DNA from: Solirubrobacteraceae bacterium
Lineage (GTDB): Bacteria > Actinomycetota > Thermoleophilia > Solirubrobacterales > Solirubrobacteraceae
NCBI GenBank assembly: GCA_036379935.1
Contig: DASVFT010000166.1
Coordinates: 3,683 to 67,682, forward strand
Reading direction: 5' to 3'
DNA length: 64,000 nt
How positions within the stretch are numbered: the first letter of the stretch is position 1; the number at the start of each line of letters is the position of its first letter. A program made the translations under genes and the position numbers. Under the pieces are notes generated by a model. It did not search any database and was not told the DNA's origin. It saw nothing but the letters and a program-made list of their open reading frames with translations. Shown here piece by piece: positions 11,502 through 27,588 of this stretch.

Positions 11502-12340
11502 GCGACGAGCAGGTCGAGGCCTTCCACCGCGACGGCTTCCTCGTCATCGAGGAGGGCTTCATCTCCGACCGCACGATCGAGGCGCTGCGCGAGCGCTTCG
11601 ACCGGTTGTTCGCGGGCGAGTACGCCTCCGGCATCCAGCCCGACGAGGTCAACTGGAGACCAGGCCGCGATCCCGAGGACAGGACGCGGCAGATCTGCAA
11701 CGGCTGGCGGGCGGACGACATGATCGCCGCACAGGTGCTCAGCGAGCCGACGGGGCGCATCGCCGCCCGACTGATGGGCTACGGCGGCGCTCGCATCCTG
11801 CAGGACAACTGCCTCTGGAAGCCGCCCGGCGCGCGCTCGCTCGGCATGCACCAGGACGGCTCCTACGCCGACTACCTGGTCCCGGCGGAGATGATCACCT
11901 GCTGGGTGGCGCTGGACGACACCCGCGCCGAGGGCGGGACGATCGAGTACGCGCGCGGCTCGCACCGCTGGCCCAAGGTCCCACCCGACCGCGGGAGCTT
12001 CCACGCCCCGGACGACTGGCTGGCGCCGCTGCACGCCGCCGCGCCCGAGGGTGAGGAGCCCGAGGTGGTGCCGGTCGTGGTCAAGGCCGGCGGCTGCTCG
12101 TTCCACCACTCGCTCACCTTCCACGGCTCCGGCCCCAACGAGGCGACCACGCACCGGCGCGCGATCGTCTCGCACCTGCTGCCGGCTCAGGCGCGCTTCC
12201 ACCCGACGAACGTCGACCCGATCTACTCGCGCTACCGGCGCCGCGGCGACCTGTCGATGGACGAGTCGTTCTTCCCGGTGCTCTGGGACGAGGCCGGCGG
12301 GCGCACGTCCTGGCTCGACGAGTTGCCCAACCTCTCGTAG
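11468..12340 (+). CDS. phytanoyl-CoA dioxygenase (PhyH) family Fe(II)/2-oxoglutarate oxygenase
   Basis: About 290 aa. It has MHQDGSY (HxD) and TFHGSGPN (distal His), plus LSDEQVEAFHRDGFLVIE at the N-terminus. The only canonical in-frame start is the ATG at 11468, which overlaps the GS-like gene by 34 nt. The start is uncertain. Confidence 0.75.
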   Translation: MGAGPVPAAVLSDEQVEAFHRDGFLVIEEGFISDRTIEALRERFDRLFAGEYASGIQPDEVNWRPGRDPEDRTRQICNGWRADDMIAAQVLSEPTGRIAARLMGYGGARILQDNCLWKPPGARSLGMHQDGSYADYLVPAEMITCWVALDDTRAEGGTIEYARGSHRWPKVPPDRGSFHAPDDWLAPLHAAAPEGEEPEVVPVVVKAGGCSFHHSLTFHGSGPNEATTHRRAIVSHLLPAQARFHPTNVDPIYSRYRRRGDLSMDESFFPVLWDEAGGRTSWLDELPNLS

Positions 12341-15255: not shown

Positions 15256-15454
15256 CTAGATGACTGATTCCGCGGCCCGCGCGGCCAGATGGCCGTGCAC
15301 CGTGGATGCCGGGCGACGCGGGCCGAAGGGGGACAGTGGCAGAGCGGGCACCGACGGCCGGAGGCCGTTGGTCGGTGACCTCTTCGGACCGTGGCGATCC
15401 GGCGCCGCGGGGCGCGGACAGATGGTCGTGGGCGTCGTGGAATCAGTCATCTAG
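15256..15454. repeat. 199-bp imperfect palindrome with 16-bp perfect terminal inverted repeats (possible MITE-like element or long RNA hairpin)
   Basis: CTAGATGACTGATTCC at 15256-15271 is the exact reverse complement of GGAATCAGTCATCTAG at 15439-15454. The interior is partly self-complementary with indels, and the apex lies near 15355-15362. It fills the whole intergenic gap, and the right arm contains the ACAD-fold gene stop codon. Confidence 0.75.
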
Positions 15455-16854
15455 GCCTTTCCGGCGGGCTCGCGCGCCTCGTCCTTGTCCGCCTGGTCGG
15501 CGAGCTGCTTGGCGAGTTCGCGCTTGGCCGCGGCGTCGAGCTTCTTGATCTCGTTCTCGACCACGCGGCGGTTGTACGTCTGGTTCCAGTAGTCGAGCGA
15601 CTCGAAGCCCAGCAGCACCGCCTTGCCGACGAACTGGCGCAGCACCTCGTTGGTCGGGCCCATGACCCAGCCGGCCTTGGCGTCACGCAGGTAGCGCTCG
15701 ATCTCCATGTCGCGCTTGTAGCCCGACCCGCCGCAGGCGTGGAGCATCTTGTCCACCACATGGGCGGTGTTCTTGGCGGCCTCGAACTTGATCTGCCAGG
15801 CCCAGTGCAGGTAATCGGCGCGCGCCGTCTCGCCGGGCTTGAGCTCTCGCCGGTTGTCGTCGGTGGCGCGGTCCATCGCCTGCGCGACCGAGAAGACGAA
15901 CAGGCGCGAGGCGTTGGTGTCCATCACGGCCTCGCCGACGTAGTCCTGGATCGTCGGGTAGTCGGCCACGCGCATGCCGACGTCGACGTGGCGCTTGCGG
16001 GTGGTGTGGCGCTTGGCGATGTCGATCGCGCCCATCGCGATGCCGTTCCACACCGACGAGGAGCCGATGAGGAACCACGGGTCGACGGCCTCGTCGTTGG
16101 AGGCGGCGCCGTCGCCGATCGGCCCGACGATCTGGTCGCCGGGGATCTCGATGTTGTCGACCTCGATCGGGCCCGACTGGTTGCCGCGCAGGCCCAGCGC
16201 GTCCCACAAGGAGGGCTGGGACTTGACGTGCTCGCCGTCGATGACGAAGACGGACAGGTCGTCGTAGCCCTTGAAGTCGGGGCTCGTGGTCTGCACGACG
16301 TAGAAGTCCGCGAAGCCGCCCGACGTGGTCCACGACGCCTTCTTGCGCACCTTGAAGCCGCCGTTGGCGCGCTCGGCGCCCGACGAGAACGGGTACCAGA
16401 AGTGCGAGCCGGTCTCCGGGTCCGAGTACGACAGCGTGCCGATCTTGCACTCGTTGAGGGGGCGGATGTACTTGTCGACGAGCTCTGGCGTCGGGCGCAG
16501 CATGATCGTGGCCACGGCGCCGGTGTGCATGACGTAGCACATGGCCGTCGACGCGCAGCCGTAGCGCGCCAGCGTCTCGCAGGTCATGCAGAAGGCGACG
16601 TGGTTCTCGCCCAGGCCGCCGTACTCCTCGGGCACGATGAGCGACAGGAAGCCGTTCTCGGCCAGGATCTCGAAGTTGCGCCGCGGGAAGAGCAGCTCGT
16701 CATCCGAGCGCTTGGCGTTGGCACGCAGCTCCTGCTCGCAGAGCTCGATGAGCTTCGTCCGCAGCTCCTGCTGGCGTTCCGTGAGGACCCAGTCGGGGTC
16801 CCAGTCGTATCCGAGCCCCCAGAAGGGCTCTCCTCCCCACGCCTTATCCGCCAT
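15451..16854 (-). CDS. acyl-CoA dehydrogenase-fold flavoprotein (possible two-component monooxygenase/oxidase component)
   Basis: 467 aa from the ATG at 16854 (SD GAGGAGAGG). It carries ALGLRGNQSG and ACGGSGYKRDMEIERYLRDAKAG ACAD-type motifs. About 60 aa form a charged C-terminal extension. Confidence 0.8.
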   Translation of the reverse strand: MADKAWGGEPFWGLGYDWDPDWVLTERQQELRTKLIELCEQELRANAKRSDDELLFPRRNFEILAENGFLSLIVPEEYGGLGENHVAFCMTCETLARYGCASTAMCYVMHTGAVATIMLRPTPELVDKYIRPLNECKIGTLSYSDPETGSHFWYPFSSGAERANGGFKVRKKASWTTSGGFADFYVVQTTSPDFKGYDDLSVFVIDGEHVKSQPSLWDALGLRGNQSGPIEVDNIEIPGDQIVGPIGDGAASNDEAVDPWFLIGSSSVWNGIAMGAIDIAKRHTTRKRHVDVGMRVADYPTIQDYVGEAVMDTNASRLFVFSVAQAMDRATDDNRRELKPGETARADYLHWAWQIKFEAAKNTAHVVDKMLHACGGSGYKRDMEIERYLRDAKAGWVMGPTNEVLRQFVGKAVLLGFESLDYWNQTYNRRVVENEIKKLDAAAKRELAKQLADQADKDEAREPAGKA

Positions 16855-16881
16855 CGCCTCTCCTCGGTCGGGGGATCGATC

Positions 16882-16895
16882 GTACAAACTTGTAC
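16882..16895. promoter_or_regulatory. 14-bp palindrome GTACAAACTTGTAC (candidate operator)
   Basis: Read directly. It lies 28 nt upstream of the ACAD-fold ATG, in the divergent 208-bp intergenic region. Confidence 0.35.
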
Positions 16896-17013
16896 AGAGC
16901 AACTTCTACCGCTCCCAGACTCGCCTGTCCATCCCGTGCGAGGTGAACGACGCATGGCACGCCGCCGTTGACGCTGTCCGGGGGGCGTGGTAGAAGACGC
17001 TCTGCCCGGCCGT

Positions 17014-17027
17014 GTACCAATTGGTAC
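17014..17027. promoter_or_regulatory. perfect 14-bp palindrome GTACCAATTGGTAC (candidate operator)
   Basis: Read directly. It lies 36 nt upstream of the APC permease ATG. It shares GTAC ends and symmetry with the site at 16882. Confidence 0.4.
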
Positions 17028-17062
17028 GAGCCTGCTGGGCGTCCCGTCGAGAGCGAGGGCCA

Positions 17063-18616
17063 ATGGCGTATGCCGAGGTAGAGGAGAGACAGCTACTCAA
17101 GGCGATGACATGGTGGGACGGGTTCGTCGTCGCGCTCGCGAACCCGGGCTTCCTGATCGCCGCGTTGGGCTCGTCGATCGGTGCGTTGGGGACGACGGGC
17201 GCGTTCGTGCTCTGGACCGTGTCGATCGTCTTCGGCGCGCTGCAGAACAACATCCATGCCGAGTTGGCGTGCATGTTCCCCAACAAGTCCGGCGGCATCG
17301 CCCTCTACGCGCACGAGGCGTGGCGCAAGTACCTCACCTTCATCGGCCCTGTGGCGACGTTCGGCTACTGGATCGGGTGGTCGGTCGTCCTGTCGATCAA
17401 CGGCCTCGTCGCCGGCACGCTGATCCAGGCCGAGTGGTTCTCGAAGAACACGTGGACCAAGAGCGGCGCGGGCTTCGACCTGTCGCTGCCGATCGTGATC
17501 GGCATCGGCCTGATCGTGCTCGTCTGGCTCTTCAACATCTACGGCGTGCGGCCGGCCGTGTGGTTCGGCTACGTGACCGGCGCCCTGCTGTGCGTCCCCG
17601 CGTTCGTGCTCATGTTCCTGCCCTACGTCACCGGTGACTGGCACAGCGCGAACATGCAGTGGAACATCGGCGCGGGCGGCGGCATCCCGCTCGTGCTCAC
17701 GTGGCTGTACTTCATGTGCTGGTCCTCGTACGGCATCGAGGTCGTCGCCACGTTCGCGCCCGAGTACCACGACACGGAGCGCGACACGCCGAAGGCCCTG
17801 CGCTCAGCGGCGCTCTTCTCCGTCGCGGTCTACGCCCTGCTGCCGCTCGGCCTGGGCGGCACGCTCGGCACGAAGGCGGTCGCCGACGACGCGACCTTCA
17901 TCGCCTTCTACACCCAGGCCTTCGACAAGATCGTGGGCCACGGGCTGACCAACGTGATGATCGCCTGCATCGTCGGCGGTCTCGTGCTGTCGATGAACAC
18001 GGCGACCATGGACGGCTCGCGCGCGCTCTACGGCATCTCGAAGGACGGGATGACGATCCGCGAGCTCGGAGTGCTCAACCGGTTCCGCGTCCCCGGGCGC
18101 GCGATGACGATCGACGCGATCCTCAACATCTTCCTGATCACCTACTTCACCGGAGTGCTGTCGATCCTCGCGGTGAGCAACATCGGCTACGTGTTCGCCA
18201 CATGCTGCGCGCTCGCCGGCTTCCTGCTGCTGCGCAAGGACCGGCCGAACTGGCCGCGCCCGATCCGCTTGCCCGACATCTGGGTGCCGATCGCCAGCGT
18301 GCTGCTGGCGATCAACGTCGTCCTCCTCATCGCCGGCGGCTTCCTGTACTCGGGCGGCTTCCTCGGCATCACGGGCTACGGCTATGGCTGGGACAAGACC
18401 CGCACGGGCCTGATCGTCCTCGTCGCGGCCTTCCTGCTCTACGTCTACCGGCACGTGGTCCAGGACAAGATCCCGCTGCGGCTGCGCGAGGAGGTCCCGC
18501 AGACGCCGGAGGACCTCTTGGTCCATCCCGAGCTGGCTCCCGCGGGCGTGGGCGACCCGGACGACCTCATCGCGACGGCCGGGCCCGCGCCGCCGCCGAC
18601 GTCGCCTTCGTCCTGA
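17063..18616 (+). CDS. APC-superfamily amino acid/amine permease
   Basis: 517 aa from the ATG at 17063 (SD GAGGG), with about 12 predicted TM segments. General APC features are present (GIALYAHEAWRKY, MNTATMDGSRALYGISKDG). Confidence 0.85.
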   Translation: MAYAEVEERQLLKAMTWWDGFVVALANPGFLIAALGSSIGALGTTGAFVLWTVSIVFGALQNNIHAELACMFPNKSGGIALYAHEAWRKYLTFIGPVATFGYWIGWSVVLSINGLVAGTLIQAEWFSKNTWTKSGAGFDLSLPIVIGIGLIVLVWLFNIYGVRPAVWFGYVTGALLCVPAFVLMFLPYVTGDWHSANMQWNIGAGGGIPLVLTWLYFMCWSSYGIEVVATFAPEYHDTERDTPKALRSAALFSVAVYALLPLGLGGTLGTKAVADDATFIAFYTQAFDKIVGHGLTNVMIACIVGGLVLSMNTATMDGSRALYGISKDGMTIRELGVLNRFRVPGRAMTIDAILNIFLITYFTGVLSILAVSNIGYVFATCCALAGFLLLRKDRPNWPRPIRLPDIWVPIASVLLAINVVLLIAGGFLYSGGFLGITGYGYGWDKTRTGLIVLVAAFLLYVYRHVVQDKIPLRLREEVPQTPEDLLVHPELAPAGVGDPDDLIATAGPAPPPTSPSS

Positions 18617-18631
18617 TCGCGCTGCGCCCGC

Positions 18632-19039
18632 CTACTGCGGGCGCAGCTCCCAGCGGGGCAGGTGGGCGATGGCCTGCCGGTAGCGCCGTCGGTGGACGGG
18701 CCGCACGAAGACGAACCAGATCATCATCGCCATCGGCAGCAGCACGAACACGTTGAAGATGTTGCCGGTGAGCGTGAAGAAGATCGCCAGCGCGGCGACG
18801 ACCATGCCGAGGGCGATCGGCACCATGCGGAAGCGCCACTGGAGCCGCCGGATGGCCTCGTACTGCTCGGCCGGGATCTGGCGCGTGTCCCAGCGCTTGC
18901 CGCAGCGCTCGCACCGCCACTCCTCCCCGTAGCGCAGGTCGCGCTTGGAGCCGCACTCGCAGGTGACCGCGATCGGCGGGCCGCGCAGGACCGTGCCCGG
19001 CTGCTCGCGGCCGAGGCGCTCGCGCGGCCTTACGTCCAC
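18632..19039 (-). CDS. zinc-ribbon membrane protein (C-x-C...C-x2-C followed by 2 TM)
   Basis: VTCECGSKRDLRYGEEWRCERCGKRWD is followed by MVPIALGMVVAALAIFFTL and FNVFVLLPMAMMIWFVFV. It is the last gene of the operon. The only upstream in-frame start is the GTG at 19039, which overlaps the preceding stop. The start is uncertain. Confidence 0.5.
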   Translation of the reverse strand: MDVRPRERLGREQPGTVLRGPPIAVTCECGSKRDLRYGEEWRCERCGKRWDTRQIPAEQYEAIRRLQWRFRMVPIALGMVVAALAIFFTLTGNIFNVFVLLPMAMMIWFVFVRPVHRRRYRQAIAHLPRWELRPQ

Positions 19040-20274
19040 GGGTAGGGCCCCTTGGAGGCCGCGTGCGTCGCGCCCTGCGCGAAGCGGCCGAGGCGGAAGG
19101 CGTCCAGGAGCGGCTCGCCGTCGTCGAGGATGTCGTCGGCCGCGAGCCGGCCGATGGCCAGCGTCTTGAAGCCATGGCCGGAGTCGACGATCGCGTAGAC
19201 GTTGGGAAGGACCCAGTCGCACACGGGGTAATTGTCGGGTGTGTGGGGGACGATGCCGCCGTTGGCGGTCACGCTCCAGTCGTCCGAGCGCCCGCGGAAG
19301 CGCCGCAGCGCCCTGGCCAGCCCCGAGGTGAGGAACTCCGCGAAGGCCGGCTCGGCCACGTGCGCGGGGTTGCCCCAGCCGTACGGGTCGAGCTCGGGAT
19401 CGTCCAGGAAGACCGGCAGGCCGCCCCCCGCGATCGAGCTGCTGCCGCGGAAGTAGATCCCCCAGGGGCCGTCGACCAGGACGCGGTTGTCGCGATCGGA
19501 GCGCAGCGGCTCCTCCTGGTCGAGGTGCACGACCGGCGGCTCGGCGCCTGCGCCGCTCAGGCCCACGCCGCGCAGCTGGAACTCGCCCTCCTGGGCCTTC
19601 ATGTAGGAGACCAACGGGCGTGGCTTGCCGCCCACCTCGACCTCCGGGCTCAGGCCGAGCATCCTCCAGACGCCCGCGATCCACGGTCCCGGTGCGACGA
19701 TCACCGTCTCGCACGGCACGCGGCCCTCGCTCGTCGCCACGGCTCGCCCGTCGCGCTCGAAGCCGACGACCTCCACGCCCTCGCGGATCTCGGCGCCGGC
19801 CGCGCGCGCCCGGTGGGCGAGGTGGCGCACCGTCTGCATCGCGTCCGCCCAGCCTCCGCGGCGCTCGTGCAGCACGGCTTCGACCGGGGCGTCCCAGTCG
19901 GCCCAGGTCCACGACAGGTACTCGCGGCAGCGCTCCGCGCCAAGCACGAGCTCTGACTCGTACCCGGCGCGCTCGTGCTGCTCGCGGATGGCGACGAGGT
20001 CGTCGACCTGGCGCTCCGGCACCGCTGCGAGGTAGCCGACCTGCCGGAACCCGTAAGCCTCGGGCTCGGCCTCGAACATCTCCACCGACAGCCGCACGAG
20101 CTCGGTGATCGCCTCGGCCCGGTAGTAGTTGCGGACGATCCCTCCCGCGATCCCCGAGGCGCCGGCGCCCGGGCGCGCCTTGTCGAGCACGACCACGTCA
20201 GCGCCGCGCTCGGCGAGGCGCCAGGCGACCGAGAGGCCGTTGACCCCGCCGCCGACGACGACGTGGGACGGCAT
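19030..20274 (-). CDS. FAD-dependent oxidoreductase, DAO family (sarcosine-oxidase-beta-like), paralogue 2
   Basis: 414 aa with VVGGGVNGLSVAWRLAERGADVVVLDK (GxGxxG). It ends ...SKGPYPWT. The ATG at 20274 overlaps the upstream stop by 1 nt. Confidence 0.85.
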   Translation of the reverse strand: MPSHVVVGGGVNGLSVAWRLAERGADVVVLDKARPGAGASGIAGGIVRNYYRAEAITELVRLSVEMFEAEPEAYGFRQVGYLAAVPERQVDDLVAIREQHERAGYESELVLGAERCREYLSWTWADWDAPVEAVLHERRGGWADAMQTVRHLAHRARAAGAEIREGVEVVGFERDGRAVATSEGRVPCETVIVAPGPWIAGVWRMLGLSPEVEVGGKPRPLVSYMKAQEGEFQLRGVGLSGAGAEPPVVHLDQEEPLRSDRDNRVLVDGPWGIYFRGSSSIAGGGLPVFLDDPELDPYGWGNPAHVAEPAFAEFLTSGLARALRRFRGRSDDWSVTANGGIVPHTPDNYPVCDWVLPNVYAIVDSGHGFKTLAIGRLAADDILDDGEPLLDAFRLGRFAQGATHAASKGPYPWT

Positions 20275-21533
20275 CAGCTCCAGGGATACGGGCTGTTCGA
20301 CACCGGGTGCAGGTCGCCGGTGGCGAAGCGCTCGTAGCGGAAGGGGTGCAGCAGCGCGGAGTGCTCGCCCTGCAGCACGCGGGCGATCTCGCGGCCCACC
20401 GCGATCATCTTGTAGCCGTGGTTGGAGTCGGCCGCGACGAAGACGTTCGGGCGCATGTAGTCGAAGACGGGGAAGTTGTCGGCCGTGAAGGCGCCCACGC
20501 CGCCCGAGCGCGTCTGGCGGTAGCGCGGTCGCGAGCCCTCGAAGCGCTCCATGCAGTGCGAGAGCGCCGCGCAGAAGAGGTCGGGGAACTCCGGCTCGAC
20601 CGTGCCCGTCGGATAGGGGTCGAGCGCGAACTCGTGTCCCTTCGGCAGCGGTGAGGCGCCGCCCTGGACGCTGTGCTTGTCCTGCTTGTAGTAGATGCCC
20701 CACTGCTCGTCGGTGATGAGCCGCCCGTCGTCGTCGTGCAGCGGCGCGTGGCTGTCGACGTGGACGACCGGGGGCAGGGCGCCGTCGTTGGTGACGAAGA
20801 TCGCCGGATCGACGCCGATCTCGCCCTCCTGGAGGTACCAGTAGGTCCACATCTCGCGCTCGGAGCCCGCGACCTCCAGGCGCCGCGGCAGGCCGAGCAT
20901 CTCCCACAGCACCGGGATCCAGGGCCCCACAGCGACGATGACCTGCTCGACCGCGATCGCCCCGGCCGAGGTCTGCACGTGCGTCACCGCGCCCGAGCCG
21001 TCGAGGTCGAACCCGGTGACCTCGACGCCCTCCTCGATCTCCGCGCCGGCGGCGCGCGCCTTGGAGGCCAGGCCGAGCATGGAGTCGCGGTTGTAGGCGA
21101 ACCCGCCCGCCCGCTCGTGCAGGCAGACGCTCAGCCCCGGCGCCCGCCAGTCCCCGAACAGCGAGCGCATGTGCGCCGCCACCTCGGCCTCGCCGAGGAT
21201 GAGCTGCGACGGATAGCCGATCTGCTGCTGGCGCTCGTGGACCGTCGTGAGGTCGTCGACCTGGGCCCCGTCGCCCAGGGCGATGTAGCCCGAGCCGTGA
21301 TACGCGAAGGTCTCGGGGTCGGACTCCCAGATCTCCACGCAGGCGGCCATGAGCTCGGACATCGCCGGCTGGAAGTAGTTGTTGCGCACGACGCCGCAAG
21401 CGATGCCGGAGGCTCCGGCGGCCACGCCGGTCTTGTCGACGACGAGGACGTCCTCGCCCTGCTGGGCGAGGTGCCACGCCGTGGAGAGCCCGTGGACTCC
21501 CGCTCCGATGACGAGATGGCCGGTCGCGCGCAT
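20274..21533 (-). CDS. FAD-dependent oxidoreductase, DAO family (sarcosine-oxidase-beta-like), paralogue 1
   Basis: 419 aa with VIGAGVHGLSTAWHLAQQGEDVLVVDK. It ends ...SNSPYPWS and aligns by eye with the downstream paralogue along its whole length. Confidence 0.85.
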   Translation of the reverse strand: MRATGHLVIGAGVHGLSTAWHLAQQGEDVLVVDKTGVAAGASGIACGVVRNNYFQPAMSELMAACVEIWESDPETFAYHGSGYIALGDGAQVDDLTTVHERQQQIGYPSQLILGEAEVAAHMRSLFGDWRAPGLSVCLHERAGGFAYNRDSMLGLASKARAAGAEIEEGVEVTGFDLDGSGAVTHVQTSAGAIAVEQVIVAVGPWIPVLWEMLGLPRRLEVAGSEREMWTYWYLQEGEIGVDPAIFVTNDGALPPVVHVDSHAPLHDDDGRLITDEQWGIYYKQDKHSVQGGASPLPKGHEFALDPYPTGTVEPEFPDLFCAALSHCMERFEGSRPRYRQTRSGGVGAFTADNFPVFDYMRPNVFVAADSNHGYKMIAVGREIARVLQGEHSALLHPFRYERFATGDLHPVSNSPYPWS

Positions 21534-21534
21534 C

Positions 21535-21960
21535 TCAGTGGGCCGGCGCCTCCCAGCCCTCGAGCACGCCCGGCCGCCAGTCCTCGCCGACGGTCCGCGA
21601 GCCCTCGACCCAGGGGCCGAGCTCGGGCTGGGGGAACTTGCAGTGGGTCTCCTTGAGCCGGATGCCGTAGGAGTTGCCCGCCTGCAGATGCGCGATCAGG
21701 ACCTTGCGGGCGATCTCGTGCTCGCGCCCTTCGGGGATCGCGAAGTAGATCTTCAGGAAGGCGTTGGAGTAGCGGTCGAACACCGCCGGCGTCCCCTCTT
21801 CCTGCAGGAGCTCGATGTCCTCGAGCCAGTTGATGTCCTGCCCGGGCGTGGCGGCCTCGAGGTCGATGTCCTCGACGAGGCCGATGTCCTCCTGGTAGGG
21901 GAAGCGCTGCCCGGAGAGCTCCTCCGCGTCGAGGGCGACGATCTTGCGCGGCTCGCTCAC
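21535..21960 (-). CDS. hypothetical 141-aa acidic protein, translationally coupled inside the amine operon
   Basis: The GTG at 21960 forms a GTGA overlap with the upstream stop. The stop lies 1 nt before the next ATG. The composition is non-biased (…DRYSNAFLKIYFAIPEGREHEIARKVLIAHLQAGNSYGIRLKETHCKF…). I do not recognise a family. Confidence 0.6.
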   Translation of the reverse strand: MSEPRKIVALDAEELSGQRFPYQEDIGLVEDIDLEAATPGQDINWLEDIELLQEEGTPAVFDRYSNAFLKIYFAIPEGREHEIARKVLIAHLQAGNSYGIRLKETHCKFPQPELGPWVEGSRTVGEDWRPGVLEGWEAPAH

Positions 21961-23390
21961 GGCTCCACCGCCTCGCGCTCGGGGAGCCGGTCGATGGGGT
22001 TCTCCAGATAGCGGTCGAGCATCGTCTTGATCTCGTCGAGCGCGCGCTCCTCGGACACGCCGGGGATGTAGCTCGTGCCGGCGAGCGGGACGCGGGCCAT
22101 GGCCGCGGCCTCGGTGGTGAGGGCGGCGAGGTCCTCGGGCTCGAGGCTGTGCACGTTGGTCTTGCCGCACGCGCGCGCCAGCATCTGCACCTCGAGCGTC
22201 ATCGTGTGCAGGAAGTTGTAGACGCGGTGGGCGGCCTCCTCCACGTGCAGTCGCTTGCGCAGCTCGGGGTCCTGCGTGGTGATGCCGACCGGGCAGCGGC
22301 CCGTGTGGCAGTGGTAGCAGCGGCCGGCCGCGACGCCGACGGTGCCCTCGTAGTCGGTGACGCCCGGGATCTCCTTGTTGCAGTTGAGCGCCATGAGCGC
22401 GGAGTGGCCGATCGCCACCGCGGTGGCCCCCAGCGCCAGGCACTTGGCGACGTCGCCGCCGTTGCGGATGCCACCGGCCACCACGAGGTCGATCTCGTCG
22501 GCCAGCCCCACGTCCTCGAGCGCGCGCCGCGCCTCGGGGATGGCGGCCATCAGCGGGATGCCGGTCTCCTCGGTCGCCAGGTGTGGCCCCGCGCCGGTGC
22601 TGCCCTCGGCGCCGTCGAGGTAGATGACGTCCGGACCGCACTTGGCCGCCATGCGCACGTCGTCGTACACGCGCGCGGCGCCCAGCTTGAGCTGGATCGG
22701 CACCTCGTAGTTCGTCGCCTCGCGCGTCTCCTGGACCTTCAGCGAGAGGTCGTCGGGGCCGAGCCAGTCGGGGTGGCGCGCCGGGGAGCGCTGGTCGATG
22801 CCGGGCGGCAGACTGCGCATCTCCGCGACCTGCTCGGTCACCTTCTGGCCCATCAGGTGGCCGCCGAGCCCGACCTTGCAGCCCTGGCCGATGAAGAACT
22901 CGATCCCGTCGGCCAGCATCAGATGGTGCGGGTTGAAGCCGTACCGGCTCTGGATGATCTGGTAGTACCACTTGGTCGAGAGGTCGCGCTCGGGCGGGGT
23001 CATCCCGCCCTCACCGGAGCACGTCGCCGTCCCGGCCATCGAGGCGCCCTTGGCCAGCGCCATCTTCGCCTCCAGGGAGAGCGCGCCGAAGCTCATGCCC
23101 GTGATGTAGATCGGGATGTCGAGCTCGAGCGGCTTCTTCGCGAACCGCGCCCCGAGCACGGTCTTCGTCTCGCACTTCTCGCGGTAGCCCTCGATGACGA
23201 AGCGGGTCAGGGTCCCGGGCAGGAAGATGAGCTCGTCCCAGTGCGGGATCTTCTTGAACATCGAGAAGCCGCGCATCCGGTAGCGGCCGAGCTCGGCCTT
23301 CATGTGGATGTCGTCGATGACCTCCGGCGTGAAGATCTGGCTGCGCCCGAGGACCGTGCGCTGAGAAGGAGCGTTCTCGTCGGGGGTCAC
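21957..23390 (-). CDS. FMN-binding glutamate synthase family protein (GlxD / MgsC-like) with Fe-S-type cysteine motif
   Basis: 477 aa from the GTG at 23390 (GTGA overlap). Motifs: ITGMSFGALS, GQGCKVGLGGHL, VVAGGIRNGGDVAKCLALGATAV, RCYHCHTGRCPVGITTQ. Confidence 0.9.
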   Translation of the reverse strand: MTPDENAPSQRTVLGRSQIFTPEVIDDIHMKAELGRYRMRGFSMFKKIPHWDELIFLPGTLTRFVIEGYREKCETKTVLGARFAKKPLELDIPIYITGMSFGALSLEAKMALAKGASMAGTATCSGEGGMTPPERDLSTKWYYQIIQSRYGFNPHHLMLADGIEFFIGQGCKVGLGGHLMGQKVTEQVAEMRSLPPGIDQRSPARHPDWLGPDDLSLKVQETREATNYEVPIQLKLGAARVYDDVRMAAKCGPDVIYLDGAEGSTGAGPHLATEETGIPLMAAIPEARRALEDVGLADEIDLVVAGGIRNGGDVAKCLALGATAVAIGHSALMALNCNKEIPGVTDYEGTVGVAAGRCYHCHTGRCPVGITTQDPELRKRLHVEEAAHRVYNFLHTMTLEVQMLARACGKTNVHSLEPEDLAALTTEAAAMARVPLAGTSYIPGVSEERALDEIKTMLDRYLENPIDRLPEREAVEP

Positions 23391-24166
23391 AGGACCAGCT
23401 TCCTCTCGGAGGGCTCGAGGCTGTCGTAGTTGTAGAGCTTCTTGCCGCACACGAACTTCTGCAGTTCGGGGGGCGCGCCGAGGCCGTAGATGCGGAACTT
23501 GCGCTCGACGAGCTCCGTGTCGGCGTCGGTCCACTCGCCCTCGACGCAGTCGATGCCCAGCGCCGCGACCTTGCCGCCCACGTAGATCGTGCCGTCGTAC
23601 ATCGAGTCGCCGAGGCCGGGGCCCACGTCGCCGCAGATGATCTGGCGCCCGCGCTGCATCATGAAGCCCGTCATCGAGCCGGCGTCGCCGAGCACGAGGA
23701 TGGTCCCGCCCTTCTGGTCGATCCCTGTGCGCGCGCCGACCTGGCCCTTGACGACGAGATCGCCGCCGCGCAGCGCGGCCCCCGCGAGCGAGCCGGCGTT
23801 GCTCTCGACGACGACCACCCCCGACATCATGTTCTCGGCCACCGACCAGCCCACGCGGCCATTGATCTGGACCTCGGGCCCGTCGATCAGGCCGCAGCCG
23901 AAGTAGCCGAGGCTGCCCTCGAAGGTGATCCGGCAGCGCGTGAGGATGCCGGCGGCGAGCGAGTGGCGGGCGCTGGGGTTGAGGATCGTGACGTCCTTGA
24001 CGCCCTGCTCGTAGACCAGCCAGCGCAGCTCGGCGTTGATCTTGCGCGTCGACAGCTCGCGCGCGTCGAGCACGGCACGCTCGCCGTCGATCTCGGCGAT
24101 CTTGGGAACGCTGCCGTCGAGCTCGACGAGCCCGCGGGCGTCGTAGGTCGCGCTCAGGCTGTCCAC
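23387..24166 (-). CDS. GXGXG-motif protein (GlxC / MgsB-like)
   Basis: About 259 aa from the GTG at 24166, which overlaps the upstream gene by 13 nt. Motifs: FEGSLGYFGCGLIDG, INGRVGWSVAENMMSG, VKGQVGARTGIDQKGG. The start is moderately uncertain. Confidence 0.8.
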   Translation of the reverse strand: MDSLSATYDARGLVELDGSVPKIAEIDGERAVLDARELSTRKINAELRWLVYEQGVKDVTILNPSARHSLAAGILTRCRITFEGSLGYFGCGLIDGPEVQINGRVGWSVAENMMSGVVVVESNAGSLAGAALRGGDLVVKGQVGARTGIDQKGGTILVLGDAGSMTGFMMQRGRQIICGDVGPGLGDSMYDGTIYVGGKVAALGIDCVEGEWTDADTELVERKFRIYGLGAPPELQKFVCGKKLYNYDSLEPSERKLVL

Positions 24167-25089
24167 ACCATCACCGCGCCCTCGTAGGGGTCGTAGGTCT
24201 CGATCTCGCGGTCGACGACCTTGCGGATGGCGATCTCCTCGGAGGCCAGGGCGACGATCTCGTCGGACTCGTAGAGCACGAGCGGCTTGGCGCCGAGCTC
24301 GTCCTTGGCCACGCCGAGCGCGTCCTCGGTGACGCAGATGTAGGTGAACACGCCGTCGAGCTCGCGCAGGCTGCGGCGCATCGCGTCCTCCAGCGAGTCG
24401 CCCTGGGTCAGCCGCTCGGCCAGGTAGACGGCGATGATCTCCGAGTCGCACTCCGACTGGAATCGGTGGCCGGCGCGCTCCAGGCGCCGCCGCCACTGGT
24501 GGTAGTTCGTGAGCTGGCCGTTGTGGACGACGGCCACATCGGGGAAGGGGTAGGCCCAGTAGGGGTGGGCGTTGGCGATGTCCACGTCGGACTCGGTCGC
24601 CATCCGCGCGTGCCCGATCGCGTGGGTGCCCACGAAGCCGTTCAGGCCGTAGTCGGCCGCCACGGTCTCGGCGTCGCCGAGGTCCTTGACGATCTCCAGC
24701 GAGCGCCCCAGCGAGAGCACCTCGGCGCCGCGCACGTCCTCGATGTAGTCGGCGAGCTCCTTGAGGTCGCCGTCGTGGTCGAAGGTGACGGTCATCGCGT
24801 GCTCGGAGCTGGCGTCGATCGAGCCGACGCGCGCGCCGAGCGAGCCGAGACGGGCCTCGATCTGCCCGCGCTGGCGGCGCAGGCGGTCGGTGAACTCGAA
24901 GTCCTGGTGCCCGTTGGCCTCCGACAGCTTCACGTGCATGACGTAGCCGTCGGCGTCGGGGCGGTAGAGCGCGTAGCCCGTCGAGTCCGGCCCCCGGTGC
25001 TTCATGGCCTGGAGCATGCGCGTCATGTCGCGCCCGATGTCGTGGCGCTCCTCGCCGTCGCGGTAGATGATCCCGGCGATCCCGCACAT
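24154..25089 (-). CDS. class II glutamine amidotransferase (GlxB / MgsA-like)
   Basis: 311 aa starting MCGIAGII, with GHARMATES and VVHNGQLTNY. It starts 2 nt after the GS-like stop. Confidence 0.85.
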   Translation of the reverse strand: MCGIAGIIYRDGEERHDIGRDMTRMLQAMKHRGPDSTGYALYRPDADGYVMHVKLSEANGHQDFEFTDRLRRQRGQIEARLGSLGARVGSIDASSEHAMTVTFDHDGDLKELADYIEDVRGAEVLSLGRSLEIVKDLGDAETVAADYGLNGFVGTHAIGHARMATESDVDIANAHPYWAYPFPDVAVVHNGQLTNYHQWRRRLERAGHRFQSECDSEIIAVYLAERLTQGDSLEDAMRRSLRELDGVFTYICVTEDALGVAKDELGAKPLVLYESDEIVALASEEIAIRKVVDREIETYDPYEGAVMVWTA

Positions 25090-25091
25090 GG

Positions 25092-26585
25092 CTAGGGGAG
25101 CACCTCGAGGTACTCGTCGCGCTCCCAGTCGGTCACGGCGGCGAGGTAGCGCTCCCATTCGTCGCGCTTGTAGTGGTGGAACACCTGCCACAGGCGCCCG
25201 GGCATCGCGCCGTCGCGGATGACCTCGTCGTTGCCGAGCGCGACGAGCGCGTCGCCCAGGCTGTCGGGCACGCGCTCGAGCGGCTGCTTGCCGTTGGACT
25301 CCTGGAGCAGGTCGTAGGTGTTGGCGCTCTGGGGCTCGCCGGGGTCGAGCTCGCGCTTGATCCCGTCCAGGCCGGCGACCAGCAGGGCCGCCACGGTGAG
25401 GAAGGGGTTGCACGACGAGTCCACGCCGCGGTACTCGAAGCGCCCGCCGGAGGCGACGCGCACGGTGCAGGTGCGGTTCTGCCAGCCCCAGTTCTTGTAC
25501 ACCGGAGCCCAGAAGCCGACGTCCCACATCCGGCAGTAGGAGTTCACCGTCGGGTTGCCGACGCACATCAGCGCCCCGAAGTGGTCGAGCATGCCGCCCA
25601 GGAAGGAGCGGGCGATGTCCGAGAGCTGGGCGGGGCCGTCCGGGTCGTGGAAGACGTTGTTGCCCTCGTCGTCGACGAGCGTGAAGTGGTGGTGGTGGCC
25701 GTTGGCCGAGACGCCCGTGAACGGCTTGGGCATGAAGCTCGGCAGCAGGCCGTGCTTGCGCCCGACCGCCGCGCAGAGCTGGCGGTAGGTCGTGATGTTG
25801 TCGGCGGTCTTGACCGGCCGGTCGAAGCGGAAGTTCAGCTCGAGCTGTCCGGGGGCGTCCTCGTGGTCGCCGTAGCTCATGTCGAGGCCGAGCGCCTGGC
25901 CGTACTCGACCACGTCGAGCAGGACCGGACGAAGCTCCTCGAACTGGTGGATGTGGTAGCAGTAGGGCTTCGTCACGCCCTCGGCGGACGAGCCGTCCTC
26001 GGAGCGCCGCAGCCACATCATCTCCGGCTCGATGCCGATGAGGAAGCTGTAGCCCAGCTCGCGCTCGAACTCGGCGACGACGCGCTTGAGGTTCTGGCGC
26101 GGGTCGGCGTCCATCAGCTCGCCGGTCTCGGTGTCGTAGCAATCGCAGTACACGCGCGCGACGCGCGGATCCCAGGGCAGCTGGGCGAAGGTGTCGAGAT
26201 CGGCGATCGCCGCGAGCTCGGACTCCTCGGGTCCGAAGCCGATGTAGTTGCCCGCGCGGTCGGTGAAGAGATTGGCGGTGGCGCCGTACACGAGCTGGTA
26301 GCCCTTCTCGGCGACCTGCGGGAAGAACGACGAGACGACGCCCTTGCCCATGACCCGGCCGGTGACCGAGACCTGCTGGAAGAAGACGTACTTGATCCCC
26401 TGGCTCTCGATCCGGCGCGTGATCTCCTCGATCCGCTCGCGCCGGCCGGGCTGGTTGCGCGCCTCCTCGAGCGTGGCCGGGGGAGGCGCTGTCTTCGGCG
26501 TCTCGAGAACGGTCTTGACGGTGCCGCCGAAGCTCAGCGGAGCCTGCGGGTCGACGGCAACGCTTCCCTCGTAACGGTCGGTCAT
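25092..26585 (-). CDS. glutamine synthetase family protein, type III/GlnT-like (gamma-glutamylmethylamide synthetase GmaS candidate)
   Basis: 497 aa from the ATG at 26585 (MTDRYEG; SD GGAGAG). Motifs: IEPEMMWL, SFMPKPFTGVSANGHHHHFTL, NRTCTVRV, EYRGVDSSCNPFL. The longer track start at 26660 lies upstream of a -10-like box. Confidence 0.85.
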   Translation of the reverse strand: MTDRYEGSVAVDPQAPLSFGGTVKTVLETPKTAPPPATLEEARNQPGRRERIEEITRRIESQGIKYVFFQQVSVTGRVMGKGVVSSFFPQVAEKGYQLVYGATANLFTDRAGNYIGFGPEESELAAIADLDTFAQLPWDPRVARVYCDCYDTETGELMDADPRQNLKRVVAEFERELGYSFLIGIEPEMMWLRRSEDGSSAEGVTKPYCYHIHQFEELRPVLLDVVEYGQALGLDMSYGDHEDAPGQLELNFRFDRPVKTADNITTYRQLCAAVGRKHGLLPSFMPKPFTGVSANGHHHHFTLVDDEGNNVFHDPDGPAQLSDIARSFLGGMLDHFGALMCVGNPTVNSYCRMWDVGFWAPVYKNWGWQNRTCTVRVASGGRFEYRGVDSSCNPFLTVAALLVAGLDGIKRELDPGEPQSANTYDLLQESNGKQPLERVPDSLGDALVALGNDEVIRDGAMPGRLWQVFHHYKRDEWERYLAAVTDWERDEYLEVLP

Positions 26586-26640
26586 GCGCACTCTCCGGGT
26601 GTCGATGGGGTGCGAATCCAGCGCGGGCGAACGCGGCCCG

Positions 26641-26672
26641 ACTATATCTGGATTGGTCAAATTGGTCTATTC
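26641..26672 (-). promoter_or_regulatory. AT-rich patch with direct repeat GACCAAT-TT-GACCAAT and -10-like TATAGT (candidate promoter/operator of the GS-like operon)
   Basis: The minus-strand reading is GAATAGACCAATTTGACCAATCCAGATATAGT. It is the only AT-rich stretch in the 80-nt gap and straddles the GntR stop codon. Confidence 0.3.
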
Positions 26673-27488
26673 GCGCGAGCGGCGACCGATCGCCGGCACC
26701 GGCGGCGCTTCCTCCAGCCAGCGCACGACGTGCAGGTCGAGGCTGCGAGGCAGGAAGGTGTCGACGGAATGCTCGAGTGGAGCTCCCTCGGCGGTGCAGG
26801 TCACGTGCTCGATCTCGAGCGCCGCGGTGGTGTCGGTGACGCCGAGCGCCCGGCCGACCGGGTCGCGCTCCGTGAGGACTCGGGCCATGATGTGCGAGCG
26901 GTTGTAGGCCACCGGCACGCCCTGCTTGAGCAGGACGTCGAGGACCATCTGACCGCGCTCCAGGGCGTGGCGGAGCTTGGCGGGCGCCGGCAGCGGGATG
27001 CGCGGATGGACGACGTCGCGCATGTGGGCGGCGGGCCCGCCGTCCATGACCACCACGCGGGTGATGGTCGTGGCCAGGGTCTCGGGCTCGAGCTCGAAGA
27101 GCGGCGCGTGCTCGGAGCCGAGCGGCAGCCGCTCGATGTCCAGCTGTCCCAGCTCGAGCCGGACGCCGCGCTGGCGGGCCAGCTCGTTGTAGGAGACGAG
27201 CTTCTCCAGGCCCTCGTCCAGGGTCCACGACGTCGCCTGCCCGACGAAGGTGCCGCTGCCCTGGCGGCGCACGATCTCCCCGCTCTCCTCGAGTCGGCGC
27301 AACGCGGTGCGCAGCGTGCCGCGCGAGATGCCCAGCCGGGCCGAGAGCTCCTGCTCAGGCGGCAGGCGCTCGCCGGAGCGGTGACGACCGGTCGCAAGCC
27401 AGCGCCGCAGCGCGTCCTCCGCGACGTCCACGAGCGAGGTCCTGACCTCACGAGGCGCTGCCGTACCGGAAGAGGACCCGTTCGTCAT
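26667..27488 (-). CDS. GntR-family transcriptional regulator (HutC-like, UTRA effector domain)
   Basis: 273 aa. N-terminal wHTH: LPPEQELSARLGISRGTLRTALRRLEESGEIVRRQGSGTFV. The C-terminal ~150 aa are UTRA-like. Confidence 0.85.
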   Translation of the reverse strand: MTNGSSSGTAAPREVRTSLVDVAEDALRRWLATGRHRSGERLPPEQELSARLGISRGTLRTALRRLEESGEIVRRQGSGTFVGQATSWTLDEGLEKLVSYNELARQRGVRLELGQLDIERLPLGSEHAPLFELEPETLATTITRVVVMDGGPAAHMRDVVHPRIPLPAPAKLRHALERGQMVLDVLLKQGVPVAYNRSHIMARVLTERDPVGRALGVTDTTAALEIEHVTCTAEGAPLEHSVDTFLPRSLDLHVVRWLEEAPPVPAIGRRSRE

Positions 27489-27543
27489 GGACGAGCAGAT
27501 GGTAGTCGCGCCCGTCCAGCGCCCTGTGGCGCTTGCGCGCGGG

Positions 27544-27578
27544 CGGCGGCCGGCCGGCTCTCGTGCCGGCCGGCCGCG
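27544..27578 (-). terminator. GC-rich hairpin downstream of the CocE-family gene
   Basis: GGCGGCCGGCCGGC-tctcgt-GCCGGCCGGCCGCG gives a ~13-bp stem, 11 nt after the stop. There is no U-tract. Confidence 0.35.
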
Positions 27579-27588
27579 CCCGGCGGAC

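What the first reader, a model, noticed from the sequence alone, without database searches (positions are those of the whole stretch)
19030..21960. 141-aa unknown plus two tandem paralogous DAO-type FAD oxidoreductases where MgdABCD would be expected
Three genes follow directly after the MgsABC-like trio: an acidic 141-aa protein I cannot assign, then two ~415-aa DAO-family flavoproteins. All three are joined by GTGA, 1-nt-gap and 1-nt (ATG/TGA) start/stop junctions. The two flavoproteins are clear paralogues with the same length, both with GxGxxG, and both ending in PYPW[ST]. Tandem paralogues with tight coupling suggest a heteromeric oxidase. The position suggests the N-methylglutamate (or analogous gamma-glutamyl/N-alkyl-glutamate) oxidation step, but with a subunit composition unlike sarcosine-oxidase-type MgdABCD.
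Basis: partly seen in the sequence, partly recalled or inferred. Interest (0 to 1): 0.6.

Follow-up and report, generated by a model that had tools for sequence, protein, structure and literature searches.

The report
Orphan synthase partner plus two demethylase flavoproteins
The three genes are real, but they are probably not one enzyme: the small acidic protein belongs to an unusual methylamine-fixing (N-methylglutamate-synthase-like) enzyme, the two flavoproteins are stand-alone N-demethylating oxidoreductases, and the classical four-subunit enzyme thought to be missing is encoded elsewhere in the genome.

Summary
Observation confirmed. On the minus strand, p141 (21535-21960), DAO1 (20274-21533, 419 aa) and DAO2 (19030-20274, 414 aa) follow a GS-like ligase and a GlxB/C/D (MgsABC-like) trio. 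The junctions are a GTGA overlap, a 1-nt gap and a 1-nt overlap. DAO1 and DAO2 are 42% identical.

Interpretation partly supported. p141 has no Pfam, NCBIfam, PDB or fold match. It is 74-94% conserved and sits directly after one special subtype of the FMN subunit (GlxD 'a') in all 88 related loci. The two co-occur in 13 of 13 genomes among 401 Actinomycetota sampled. A DAO gene directly follows p141 in only 27 loci. DAO1 orthologues also occur in 9 genomes without p141, there in glycine-betaine clusters. DAO2 is a long-branch paralogue found in few Thermoleophilia.

So p141 is most likely a fourth component of the synthase-like enzyme, not an oxidase subunit. DAO1 and DAO2 form a distinct sarcosine-oxidase-fold clade and lack the FMN-linking His of true beta subunits.

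A complete SoxBDAG/Mgd-type cluster exists on another contig of this genome. A SoxA-type alpha-subunit gene lies on the island's contig, often 2-20 kb away, in most relatives. Mgd is therefore not replaced, and the DAOs are additional demethylases of unproven substrate. The scan found this module before on other DNA.

The parts
26667..27488 (-). GntR/UTRA-family regulator upstream of the operon
   Evidence: Pfam GntR 6.9e-19 and UTRA 7.5e-12. It is conserved upstream of GS3 in Thermoleophilaceae loci.
26641..26669 (-). Sigma-70-like promoter match between the GntR stop and the GS3 start. This is weak evidence for an operon start.
   Evidence: It is the only promoter-like site on 16800-27800. 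No terminator-like site was found on the minus strand between 27745 and 16800.
25092..26585 (-). GS-like gamma-glutamyl-amine ligase (GmaS-like, called 'GS3')
   Evidence: Pfam Gln-synt_C 9e-92. TIGR03105 type III GS scores 345 bits, below its cut-off. Among PDB hits is glutamate--methylamine ligase 9qur at 2.7e-72.
24154..25089 (-). GlxB/MgsA-like class-II amidotransferase; the sequence begins MCGIAG
   Evidence: Pfam GATase_6 and GATase_7.
23387..24166 (-). GlxC/MgsB-like GXGXG beta-helix subunit
   Evidence: Pfam GXGXG 7.1e-13.
21957..23390 (-). GlxD/MgsC-like FMN subunit, subtype 'a'. It keeps the GOGAT-type Fe-S cysteines (LNC...CYHCHTGRCPVG), has an altered GQGCKVGLGGH loop, and carries a unique C-terminal extension of about 25 residues.
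   Evidence: Pfam Glu_synthase 1.3e-93. Alignment to GOGAT Fe-S ligands. Comparison with other GlxD types. Identity is 87-94% across classes.
21535..21960 (-). p141: an orphan acidic 141-aa protein, a candidate fourth component of the GlxBCD(a) enzyme
   Evidence: No Pfam, NCBIfam, PDB or Foldseek match. Always directly after GlxD(a). Co-occurs with GlxD(a) in 13/13 genomes. The family is tight: 187 clusters in 1.84 billion representatives.
20274..21533 (-). DAO1: a stand-alone FAD oxidoreductase of the sarcosine-oxidase fold, in a distinct clade with an invariant C-terminal S[NH]SP[YF]PWS
19030..20274 (-). DAO2: a divergent paralogue of DAO1 (42% identity) that keeps the family's core residues and ends in GPYPWT
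18632..19039 (-). Small Zn-ribbon-like (CxC...CxxC) membrane protein. It may be the last gene of the operon. It usually travels with the APC permease. Its start codon is uncertain.
   Evidence: ORF. Synteny.
17012..18616 (+). APC-family permease, convergent with the operon. It has family-level similarity to the TMAO permease.
   Evidence: Pfam AA_permease_2 2.5e-39. NF053774 scores 200 bits, below its cut-off.

Best explanation
The region is the distal half of one operon: GS3, GlxB, GlxC, GlxD, p141, DAO1, DAO2 and probably the small Zn-ribbon membrane protein. It lies in a methylated-amine catabolic island of a Thermoleophilia bacterium (Actinomycetota). The island also holds a Tdm-type TMAO demethylase, an ACAD-fold protein, a PhyH oxygenase, an APC permease, an Amt transporter and a second, canonical-type GS/GlxBCD set.

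The three genes of the finding are two functional units, not one heteromeric oxidase.

(1) p141 is an obligate partner (fourth subunit or assembly/docking factor) of a special subtype of the N-methylglutamate-synthase-like enzyme. The FMN subunit of that subtype, GlxD 'a', keeps the glutamate-synthase Fe-S cysteines and carries a unique C-terminal extension. This role is inferred from strict co-occurrence, invariant adjacency, translational coupling and extreme conservation. It has not been shown biochemically.

(2) DAO1 is a stand-alone FAD-dependent oxidoreductase of the sarcosine-oxidase fold. It removes a methyl group, as formaldehyde, from an N-methylated amino acid. In this operon the likeliest substrate is the N-methylated glutamate made by GS3 plus GlxBCD(a). 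DAO2 is a lineage-restricted, fast-evolved but catalytically intact-looking paralogue with a shifted specificity.

The DAOs act in addition to, not instead of, the four-subunit Sox/Mgd-type enzyme encoded elsewhere in the genome. The exact substrates are inferred, not shown.
For: p141 and GlxD(a):
- p141 follows GlxD(a) in all 80 loci from genome contigs and in 8 further loci from other families and classes.
- The distance from the GlxD stop to the p141 start is -4 to about +60 nt in most loci and at most 110 nt.
- Among 401 Actinomycetota genomes, 13 have p141. Twelve of these show GlxD at 87-94% identity, and in the thirteenth the contig ends at p141. No genome has this GlxD type without p141. 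Other GlxD types (51-59% identity) never have it.
- GlxD(a) alone carries a C-terminal extension of about 25 residues.
- The AF2 model of p141 has a small alpha/beta core plus an invariant but low-confidence C-terminal tail, as expected for a segment that folds on a partner.

DAO genes:
- They are positionally loose relative to p141 (27/26/31 split).
- DAO1 orthologues occur in 22 of 401 genomes, 9 of them without p141. There they sit with BHMT, IclR, SoxBDAG, GcvT, OpuAC and BCCT genes.
- The family is a tight clade on a long branch away from SoxB-type genes. DAO2 is a nested long-branch subclade.
- 77 core residues, including H372-G-x-K375, are kept in both clades.
- The DAO1 model (pLDDT 88.9) best matches TSOX beta, MSOX, L-proline dehydrogenase beta, glycine oxidase and DMGDH/DMGO.

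Mgd-type enzyme present:
- This genome has SoxD, SoxA and SoxB next to FTHFS on contig C30, with a gap that fits SoxG.
- A SoxA-type gene is present in 12 of 12 other p141 genomes, often 2-20 kb from the island. In G223 a SoxD-SoxA-SoxB set lies directly beside GS3.

This genome's betaine cluster has its own, unrelated DAO next to BHMT, so DAO1 and DAO2 are free for the amine operon.
Against: - There is no biochemical or interaction evidence for any of these proteins.
- Multimer modelling was not possible with the tools. p141 could still bridge the synthase and the flavoproteins where both are present.
- DAO1 directly follows p141 with a 1-nt gap here and with short gaps in 27 loci, which is also what one would see for subunits of one complex.
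- All 13 p141 genomes do have a DAO1-family gene, so a functional link between p141 and DAO1 is not excluded.
- In other classes the orthologues sit in betaine clusters, so the family's ancestral substrate may be dimethylglycine or sarcosine rather than N-methylglutamate.
- The invariant C-terminal SPYPW[ST] tail of the DAOs is unexplained.
Confidence: 0.6

Rival explanations
1. One reading: p141, DAO1 and DAO2 form one heteromeric N-methylglutamate oxidase or dehydrogenase that replaces MgdABCD.
For: The start/stop junctions among the three genes are tight. They sit directly after the MgsABC-like trio. All p141 genomes also have a DAO1-family gene. IMG names the orthologues 'methylglutamate dehydrogenase subunit A'.
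Against: p141 tracks GlxD(a), not the DAOs. A DAO is not directly downstream of p141 in 57 of 84 informative loci. DAO1 occurs without p141 in 9 genomes. DAO2 is present in only 4 of 13 p141 genomes. A complete Sox/Mgd-type cluster with its own His-bearing beta subunit exists in this genome, and a SoxA-type gene is present in all relatives searched. p141 shows no similarity to SoxD or SoxG and has no Fe-S or flavin motif.
Confidence: 0.1
2. The DAOs belong to glycine-betaine catabolism (dimethylglycine and/or sarcosine oxidation) and are only co-located with the amine-fixing operon. They do not act on its product.
For: In genomes without p141, and in G092, the DAO1 orthologue (51-53% identity) lies between IclR and BHMT next to SoxBDAG, or next to GcvT, OpuAC and BCCT genes.
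Against: Here DAO1 is translationally coupled inside the GS3-GlxBCD-p141 operon. Across Thermoleophilia it is linked either to system 'a' or to the second GS/GlxBCD system. This genome's betaine cluster (OpuA, a DAO, BHMT on C168) has its own, unrelated DAO.
Confidence: 0.15
3. p141 is an adaptor or electron-transfer docking protein. It couples the Fe-S/FMN subunit GlxD(a) to a flavoprotein partner (a DAO or Sox/Mgd), so that electrons from N-demethylation feed the reductive amination step.
For: GlxD(a) keeps the GOGAT Fe-S cysteines, which implies an external redox partner. p141 lies between GlxD and the DAOs here. Both p141 and the DAOs have invariant tails that are predicted to be disordered.
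Against: p141 has no redox cofactor motif (one non-invariant Cys). Many p141 loci have no DAO nearby. Fe-S-motif GlxD proteins also exist without p141.
Confidence: 0.1

Closest known systems
N-methylglutamate pathway module gmaS-mgsABC (+ mgdABCD) of methylamine-using Proteobacteria and Mycobacterium (PMC5023230; PMC5023228)
   Same: The gene order is the same: a GS-like ligase, then a class-II amidotransferase, a GXGXG protein and an FMN glutamate-synthase-domain protein. The setting among methylated-amine genes (Tdm, permease) is also the same.
   Different: A fourth, orphan gene (p141) is locked to a distinct FMN-subunit subtype that has a C-terminal extension and an altered GQGCKVGLGGH loop. 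Stand-alone DAO flavoproteins are in the operon. The four-subunit dehydrogenase is encoded elsewhere. A second, canonical-type set is also present in the window at 742-3675 and 9765-11501.
Heterotetrameric sarcosine oxidase beta subunit (SoxB; PDB 2GAG, 1VRQ) / MgdA
   Same: These are the best structural matches of DAO1 (TM 0.75-0.79, 22-23% identity). They also have an FAD Rossmann fold with GxGxxG.
   Different: DAO1 scores 72 bits against the 529-bit TIGR01373 cut-off. The His that carries covalent FMN is Asn in DAO1 and Ala in DAO2. Relative to SoxB, the DAOs have an insertion of about 36 residues and a conserved SPYPW[ST] tail. No alpha, gamma or delta genes lie alongside.
Monomeric sarcosine oxidase family (MSOX, MTOX, NikD; PDB 2GB0, 2UZZ)
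   Same: It is a single-subunit FAD amine oxidase of the same fold (TM 0.72-0.83). The HG[YF]K motif resembles the GHGFK of MSOX; the comparison with MSOX rests on my own knowledge.
   Different: Identity is only 17-18%. TIGR01377 scores 62 bits against a 480-bit cut-off. The covalent-FAD Cys was not assessed.
Dimethylglycine oxidase / dehydrogenase (DMGO 1PJ5, DMGDH 4PAB)
   Same: The N-terminal flavin domain has the same fold. In other Actinomycetota the DAO1 orthologue occupies the dimethylglycine-oxidase slot next to BHMT and SoxBDAG, sometimes beside a separate GcvT protein.
   Different: DAO1 has no fused folate-binding GcvT domain and shares only 16-20% identity.

Membership tests
Heterotetrameric sarcosine oxidase / NMG dehydrogenase beta subunit (SoxB/MgdA, TIGR01373) | Score above the curated family cut-off | tested here: not met
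   DAO1 scores 71.7 bits and DAO2 43.7 bits against a cut-off of 529. The genome's real SoxB on C30 scores 467 bits.
Heterotetrameric sarcosine oxidase / NMG dehydrogenase beta subunit (SoxB/MgdA, TIGR01373) | His (His173 in 2GAG chain B) that carries the covalent FMN | tested here: not met
   The HMMER alignment to 2gag_B and 1vrq_B places Asn at this position in DAO1. MAFFT with the genome's own SoxB (IIRHD) shows Asn in DAO1 and Ala in DAO2. This test rests on alignment only.
Heterotetrameric sarcosine oxidase / NMG dehydrogenase beta subunit (SoxB/MgdA, TIGR01373) | Encoded together with alpha, gamma and delta subunit genes | tested here: not met
   The window has no SoxA, SoxD or SoxG gene next to the DAOs. 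Those genes lie on contig C30 with their own beta subunit.
Sarcosine-oxidase-like FAD amine oxidoreductase fold (Pfam DAO, PF01266) | DAO domain over the Pfam cut-off and a two-domain fold matching solved members | tested here: met
   Pfam DAO scores 136.8 and 150.4 bits against a cut-off of 27.9. The AF2 model has pLDDT 88.9. Foldseek probability is 1.00 with TM 0.72-0.83 to TSOX beta and MSOX.
Monomeric sarcosine oxidase family (TIGR01377) | Score above the family cut-off | tested here: not met
   DAO1 scores 62.1 bits and DAO2 47.1 bits against a cut-off of 479.65.
Monomeric sarcosine oxidase family (TIGR01377) | Covalent 8-alpha-S-cysteinyl FAD (Cys315 of MSOX) | not tested
   No residue-level structural alignment was available from the tools.
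SoxD / SoxG small subunits of sarcosine oxidase (for p141) | Match to PF04267 (SoxD) or PF04268 (SoxG); a Zn-binding Cys/His cluster in SoxD | tested here: not met
   p141 has no Pfam hit at E <= 0.01 and only one Cys. The genome's true SoxD matches PF04267 at 2e-25.
HcnABC / opine oxidase / LhpBEF-type heteromeric DAO enzymes | A small 2Fe-2S subunit plus a pyridine-nucleotide-disulfide-oxidoreductase subunit beside the DAO subunit | tested here: not met
   p141 has no Fer2_4 domain or Cys motif. The second large protein is a DAO paralogue, not a Pyr_redox_2-type subunit: the match scores 23.2 bits, below the cut-off of 26.1.
N-methylglutamate synthase MgsABC / GlxBCD (for p141 as an added component) | Three subunits: GATase II, GXGXG and an FMN Glu_synthase domain | tested here: met
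   All three domains are present upstream of p141. p141 itself is homologous to none of them, nor to GltB (hhalign probability 0.2).
N-methylglutamate synthase MgsABC / GlxBCD (for p141 as an added component) | Physical association of p141 with the complex | not testable with these tools
   Only genetic evidence is available: 88/88 adjacency and 13/13 co-occurrence.

The most novel reading that the evidence does not exclude
The GS3 / GlxBCD(a) / p141 system may fix dimethylamine, the product of the co-inherited Tdm, rather than monomethylamine. It would do so as gamma-glutamyl-dimethylamide and then N,N-dimethylglutamate. DAO1, whose orthologues occupy the dimethylglycine-oxidase slot in betaine clusters, would remove the first methyl group. 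The Sox/Mgd-type enzyme, or DAO2, would remove the second. This would be a glutamate-linked route for dimethylamine that needs no DmmDABC, and free methylamine would never be an intermediate.

It fits several observations. In the 401-genome sample, every genome with Tdm also has p141/GlxD(a) (10 of 10). Some of these genomes have only system 'a' and no canonical GS/GlxBCD. Two or three N-demethylases accompany one synthase. The substrate loop of GlxD(a) is altered. No paper in the library describes such a pathway.
Probability: 0.15. Interest if true: 0.85.

Novelty: new variant of a known kind. Interest (0 to 1): 0.5.

Why it matters
The N-methylglutamate pathway is the main route by which non-methylotrophs take nitrogen from methylamines. 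Its textbook gene set is gmaS, mgsABC and mgdABCD.

This locus shows a widespread actinobacterial version that differs in three ways:
- It has an extra, completely unannotated and extremely conserved component (p141) tied to an Fe-S-type FMN subunit.
- It has stand-alone sarcosine-oxidase-fold flavoproteins in the operon.
- It is strictly associated with TMAO demethylase.

Thermoleophilia are among the most abundant uncultured soil Actinomycetota, so this module is probably a sizeable soil sink for methylated amines.

The findings yield three concrete, testable questions:
- What is the subunit composition and reaction of the 'a'-type synthase?
- What are the substrates of the DAO1 and DAO2 clade?
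- Is dimethylamine handled by a glutamate-linked route where DmmDABC is lacking?

The work also corrects database artefacts. The apparent 'GlxD-p141 fusions' are frameshifted gene calls. The IMG name 'methylglutamate dehydrogenase subunit A' is applied to a protein that lacks the beta-subunit hallmark.

Tried and rejected
- Apparent fusion proteins of GlxD and p141 (for example P0121, 617 aa) would have shown physical linkage. Reading them showed that the middle part is the alternative open frame of GlxD, so they are frameshifted calls in high-GC DNA.
- Remote homology of p141 was sought with Pfam and NCBIfam, PDB by sequence and by profile, Foldseek on the AF2 model and hhalign against this genome's GltB. 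All gave nothing.
- I tried to decide from the GmaS structure paper (PMC7948447) whether GS3 is a methylamine-specific GmaS. I found no residue criterion that I could apply. PDB scores do not separate GS from GmaS.
- I looked for domain descriptions of DmmABC in order to search the genome for them. The paper gives none, so the absence of Dmm from this genome was not tested.
- A literature search for a stand-alone NMG oxidase or dehydrogenase, and for dimethylglutamate or glutamyl-dimethylamide metabolism, found nothing relevant.
- Multimer prediction cannot be run with the tools. The genes overlap in different frames, so no read-through construct is allowed.
- My first context tags on the DAO tree were wrong because of a string-handling slip. 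Contexts were instead read from the table.

Full report
**Observation.** The window is about 71% G+C, so many spurious ORFs are open. I picked real frames by third-position G+C and by domain hits.

On the minus strand the order is:
- GntR/UTRA regulator, 26667-27488
- GS-like ligase, 25092-26585
- GlxB-like amidotransferase, 24154-25089
- GlxC-like GXGXG protein, 23387-24166
- GlxD-like FMN protein, 21957-23390
- p141, 21535-21960
- DAO1, 20274-21533
- DAO2, 19030-20274
- a small Zn-ribbon/membrane ORF, 18632-19039

An APC permease (17012-18616, plus strand) converges on this operon. DAO1 and DAO2 are 42% identical. The only promoter-like match lies between the GntR stop and the GS start, and no terminator-like site lies inside the operon.

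**What p141 goes with.**
- p141 has no Pfam, NCBIfam or PDB match, yet it has thousands of close homologues.
- In an exhaustive HMMER pass over 1.84 billion cluster representatives, only 187 clusters match. The most divergent full-length sequence I read (P0127) is 66% identical. The lower-identity and 'fusion' entries I read are frameshifted calls.
- Orthologues are 74-94% identical, with 68 invariant columns.
- In 80 loci from species-representative genomes (Thermoleophilaceae, Solirubrobacterales, Gaiellales), the block GS-GlxB-GlxC-GlxD-p141 is constant wherever the contig allows. The flavoprotein genes are not.
- I counted 88 loci, including other families and classes. The p141 start lies -4 to about +60 nt from the GlxD stop in most and at most 110 nt away. 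A DAO gene is directly downstream in 27 loci, elsewhere in the locus in 26, and absent within about 8 kb in 31.
- Among 401 sampled Actinomycetota genomes, 13 have p141.
- GlxD identities are bimodal. Twelve of the p141 genomes show a copy at 87-94% identity, and in the thirteenth the contig ends at p141. All other GlxD homologues are 51-59% identical and never have p141.
- GlxD of this 'a' type keeps the three Fe-S cysteines of glutamate synthase plus a fourth Cys. It has an altered GQGCKVGLGGH loop. Uniquely, it has a C-terminal extension of about 25 residues.
- The AF2 model of p141 (pLDDT 71) has a small alpha/beta core. Its invariant C-terminal third is modelled with low confidence, and it has no structural neighbour.

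Taken together, p141 behaves genetically as a component of the GlxBCD(a) enzyme, not of an oxidase.

**What the flavoproteins are.**
- Both are Pfam DAO proteins. They fall far below the cut-offs of the soxB, monomeric sarcosine oxidase, ThiO and MTOX models.
- The DAO1 model (pLDDT 88.9) matches TSOX beta, MSOX, L-proline dehydrogenase beta, glycine oxidase and the flavin domain of DMGDH/DMGO at TM about 0.7-0.8 and 16-23% identity.
- The His that carries covalent FMN in TSOX beta is kept in this genome's own SoxB. It is Asn in DAO1 and Ala in DAO2.
- In a maximum-likelihood tree, the 65 DAO1/DAO2-type sequences form one clade on a very long branch away from three other DAO-family genes of this genome, including its SoxB. 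DAO2-type sequences form a nested long-branch subclade limited to some Thermoleophilia.
- All members end in SP[YF]PW[STN].
- 77 core positions, including H372-G-x-K375, are kept in both clades. About 50 positions that are invariant in DAO1 differ in DAO2. DAO2 therefore looks like an active enzyme with a shifted pocket.
- DAO1 orthologues occur in 22 of the 401 genomes: all 13 with p141 and 9 without.
- In those 9, and in G092, the gene lies in glycine-betaine clusters. Examples are IclR / DAO1 / BHMT beside SoxB-SoxA-SoxG, or a position next to GcvT, OpuAC and BCCT genes.
- In Gaiellales the DAO1 orthologue sits beside the second GS/GlxBCD set and Amt, while a DAO2-like gene follows p141.
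- This genome's betaine cluster on contig C168 has an unrelated DAO next to BHMT.

The family is thus best described as stand-alone N-methyl-amino-acid demethylating oxidoreductases. Here they have been recruited into the amine-fixing operon.

**Is Mgd missing?** No.
- Contig C30 carries SoxD, SoxA and SoxB next to formate-THF ligase and a cyclodeaminase-type gene, with a gap that fits SoxG.
- All 12 other p141 genomes have a SoxA-type gene, often 2-20 kb from the island. In G223 a SoxD-SoxA-SoxB set lies directly beside GS3.
- In another family (locus L115), SoxB-SoxD-SoxA precede the canonical-type GS/GlxBCD, which is the textbook mgd-gmaS-mgs layout.

The DAOs are therefore extra demethylases, not replacements.

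**Wider context.** The window is a methylated-amine island. It holds:
- a DUF1989+GcvT protein with the Tdm architecture (12917-15244)
- an ACAD-fold protein (15451-16902)
- a PhyH oxygenase
- a second GS (9765-11501)
- an Amt transporter (7634-9118)
- a PucR regulator
- a second GlxB/GlxD pair (742-3675)

This second set is the type found widely in Actinomycetota (71-79% identity).

In the 401-genome sample, Tdm orthologues occur in 10 genomes, and all 10 have p141/GlxD(a). Several of them have only system 'a'. This pattern, together with the betaine-cluster position of DAO1 orthologues, allows a bolder reading. In it, system 'a' fixes dimethylamine as N,N-dimethylglutamate, and the methyl groups are removed in turn by DAO1 and then by Sox/Mgd or DAO2. 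I give it about 15%. Nothing in the searched literature describes it.

**Comparison and novelty.** The closest known system is the gmaS-mgsABC-mgdABCD pathway (PMC5023230, PMC5023228). This locus is a variant of it with an orphan fourth component, a distinct FMN-subunit subtype and operon-encoded stand-alone flavoproteins. IMG already calls DAO1 orthologues 'methylglutamate dehydrogenase subunit A' by similarity, so the functional guess is not new. The subunit label does not fit, however.

Earlier notes of this scan on other genomes reached the same reading of p141 as an extra synthase subunit (e1-4745508) and of the DAO as a separate stand-alone enzyme (e1-5185341). My tests here agree with both. 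The island-level note on this window (e1-3792999) says no canonical Mgd is present. That is true for the window but not for the genome.

**Limits.** All functional statements rest on genomic context, conservation and predicted folds. No interaction, expression or activity data could be obtained.

Noticed in passing
window 742-3675 (-), 7634-9118 (+), 9765-11501 (+): A second GS/GlxB/(GlxC)/GlxD set with an Amt transporter and a PucR-GAF regulator (5800-7503). Its GlxD lacks the Fe-S cysteines and is the type that is widespread in Actinomycetota (71-79% identity in other families). There it is followed by a lone DAO or preceded by SoxB-SoxD-SoxA.
   Followed up: partly
window 12917-15244 (-), 15451-16902 (-), about 11500-12340 (+): A Tdm-type DUF1989+GcvT protein, an ACAD-fold protein (79-87% conserved across classes) and a PhyH oxygenase travel with the p141 module. 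In locus L100 a flavin-reductase/cNMP-domain gene and two GATase-1/PuuD-like hydrolases also lie in the island. In the 401-genome sample, Tdm occurs only in genomes that have p141 (10 of 10).
   Followed up: partly
window 21957-22040 (-) and GlxD residues about 165-180: GlxD type 'a' has a unique C-terminal extension of about 25 residues (SEERALDEIKTMLDRYLENPIDRLPEREAVEP). Its loop reads GQGCKVGLGGH where other GlxD proteins and GOGAT have GQGAKPGxGG. The extension is a candidate p141 docking site, and the loop is a candidate specificity change.
   Followed up: partly
DAO1 residues 412-419, DAO2 residues 407-414: The C-terminal SPYPW[ST] tail is invariant in every family member, including those in betaine clusters, yet it is modelled with pLDDT below 50. 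Its role (lid, dimer contact or partner docking) is unexplained.
   Followed up: no
DAO1 Cys46 (GASGIACGVVRNNY): This Cys is near-invariant (at least 97%) in the DAO1 clade and is Gly in all DAO2-clade sequences. It lies in the segment where some flavoenzymes of this fold attach FAD covalently. A covalent-flavin difference between the paralogues is possible.
   Followed up: no
G000 contig C30 (locus L120 6371-13615): SoxD-SoxA-(SoxG)-SoxB lie in one direction, followed by formate-THF ligase and an FTCD_C cyclodeaminase-type gene. This is the genome's four-subunit sarcosine-oxidase/NMG-dehydrogenase-type enzyme with C1-folate genes.
   Followed up: partly
G000 contig C168 (locus L121 58-8345): A glycine-betaine cluster: an OpuA-type ABC transporter, a DAO-family gene unrelated to DAO1, and a BHMT-like methyltransferase.
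   Followed up: partly
public protein sets (for example P0121, P0162, P0129): Many database 'proteins' that join GlxD and p141, or extend p141, are frameshifted calls through alternative open frames of high-GC DNA. They should not be read as domain fusions.
   Followed up: yes
window 18632-19039 (-): A small CxC...CxxC Zn-ribbon-like protein with two predicted membrane helices. Its only standard start codon overlaps the DAO2 stop region. It usually accompanies the APC permease in related loci.
   Followed up: no
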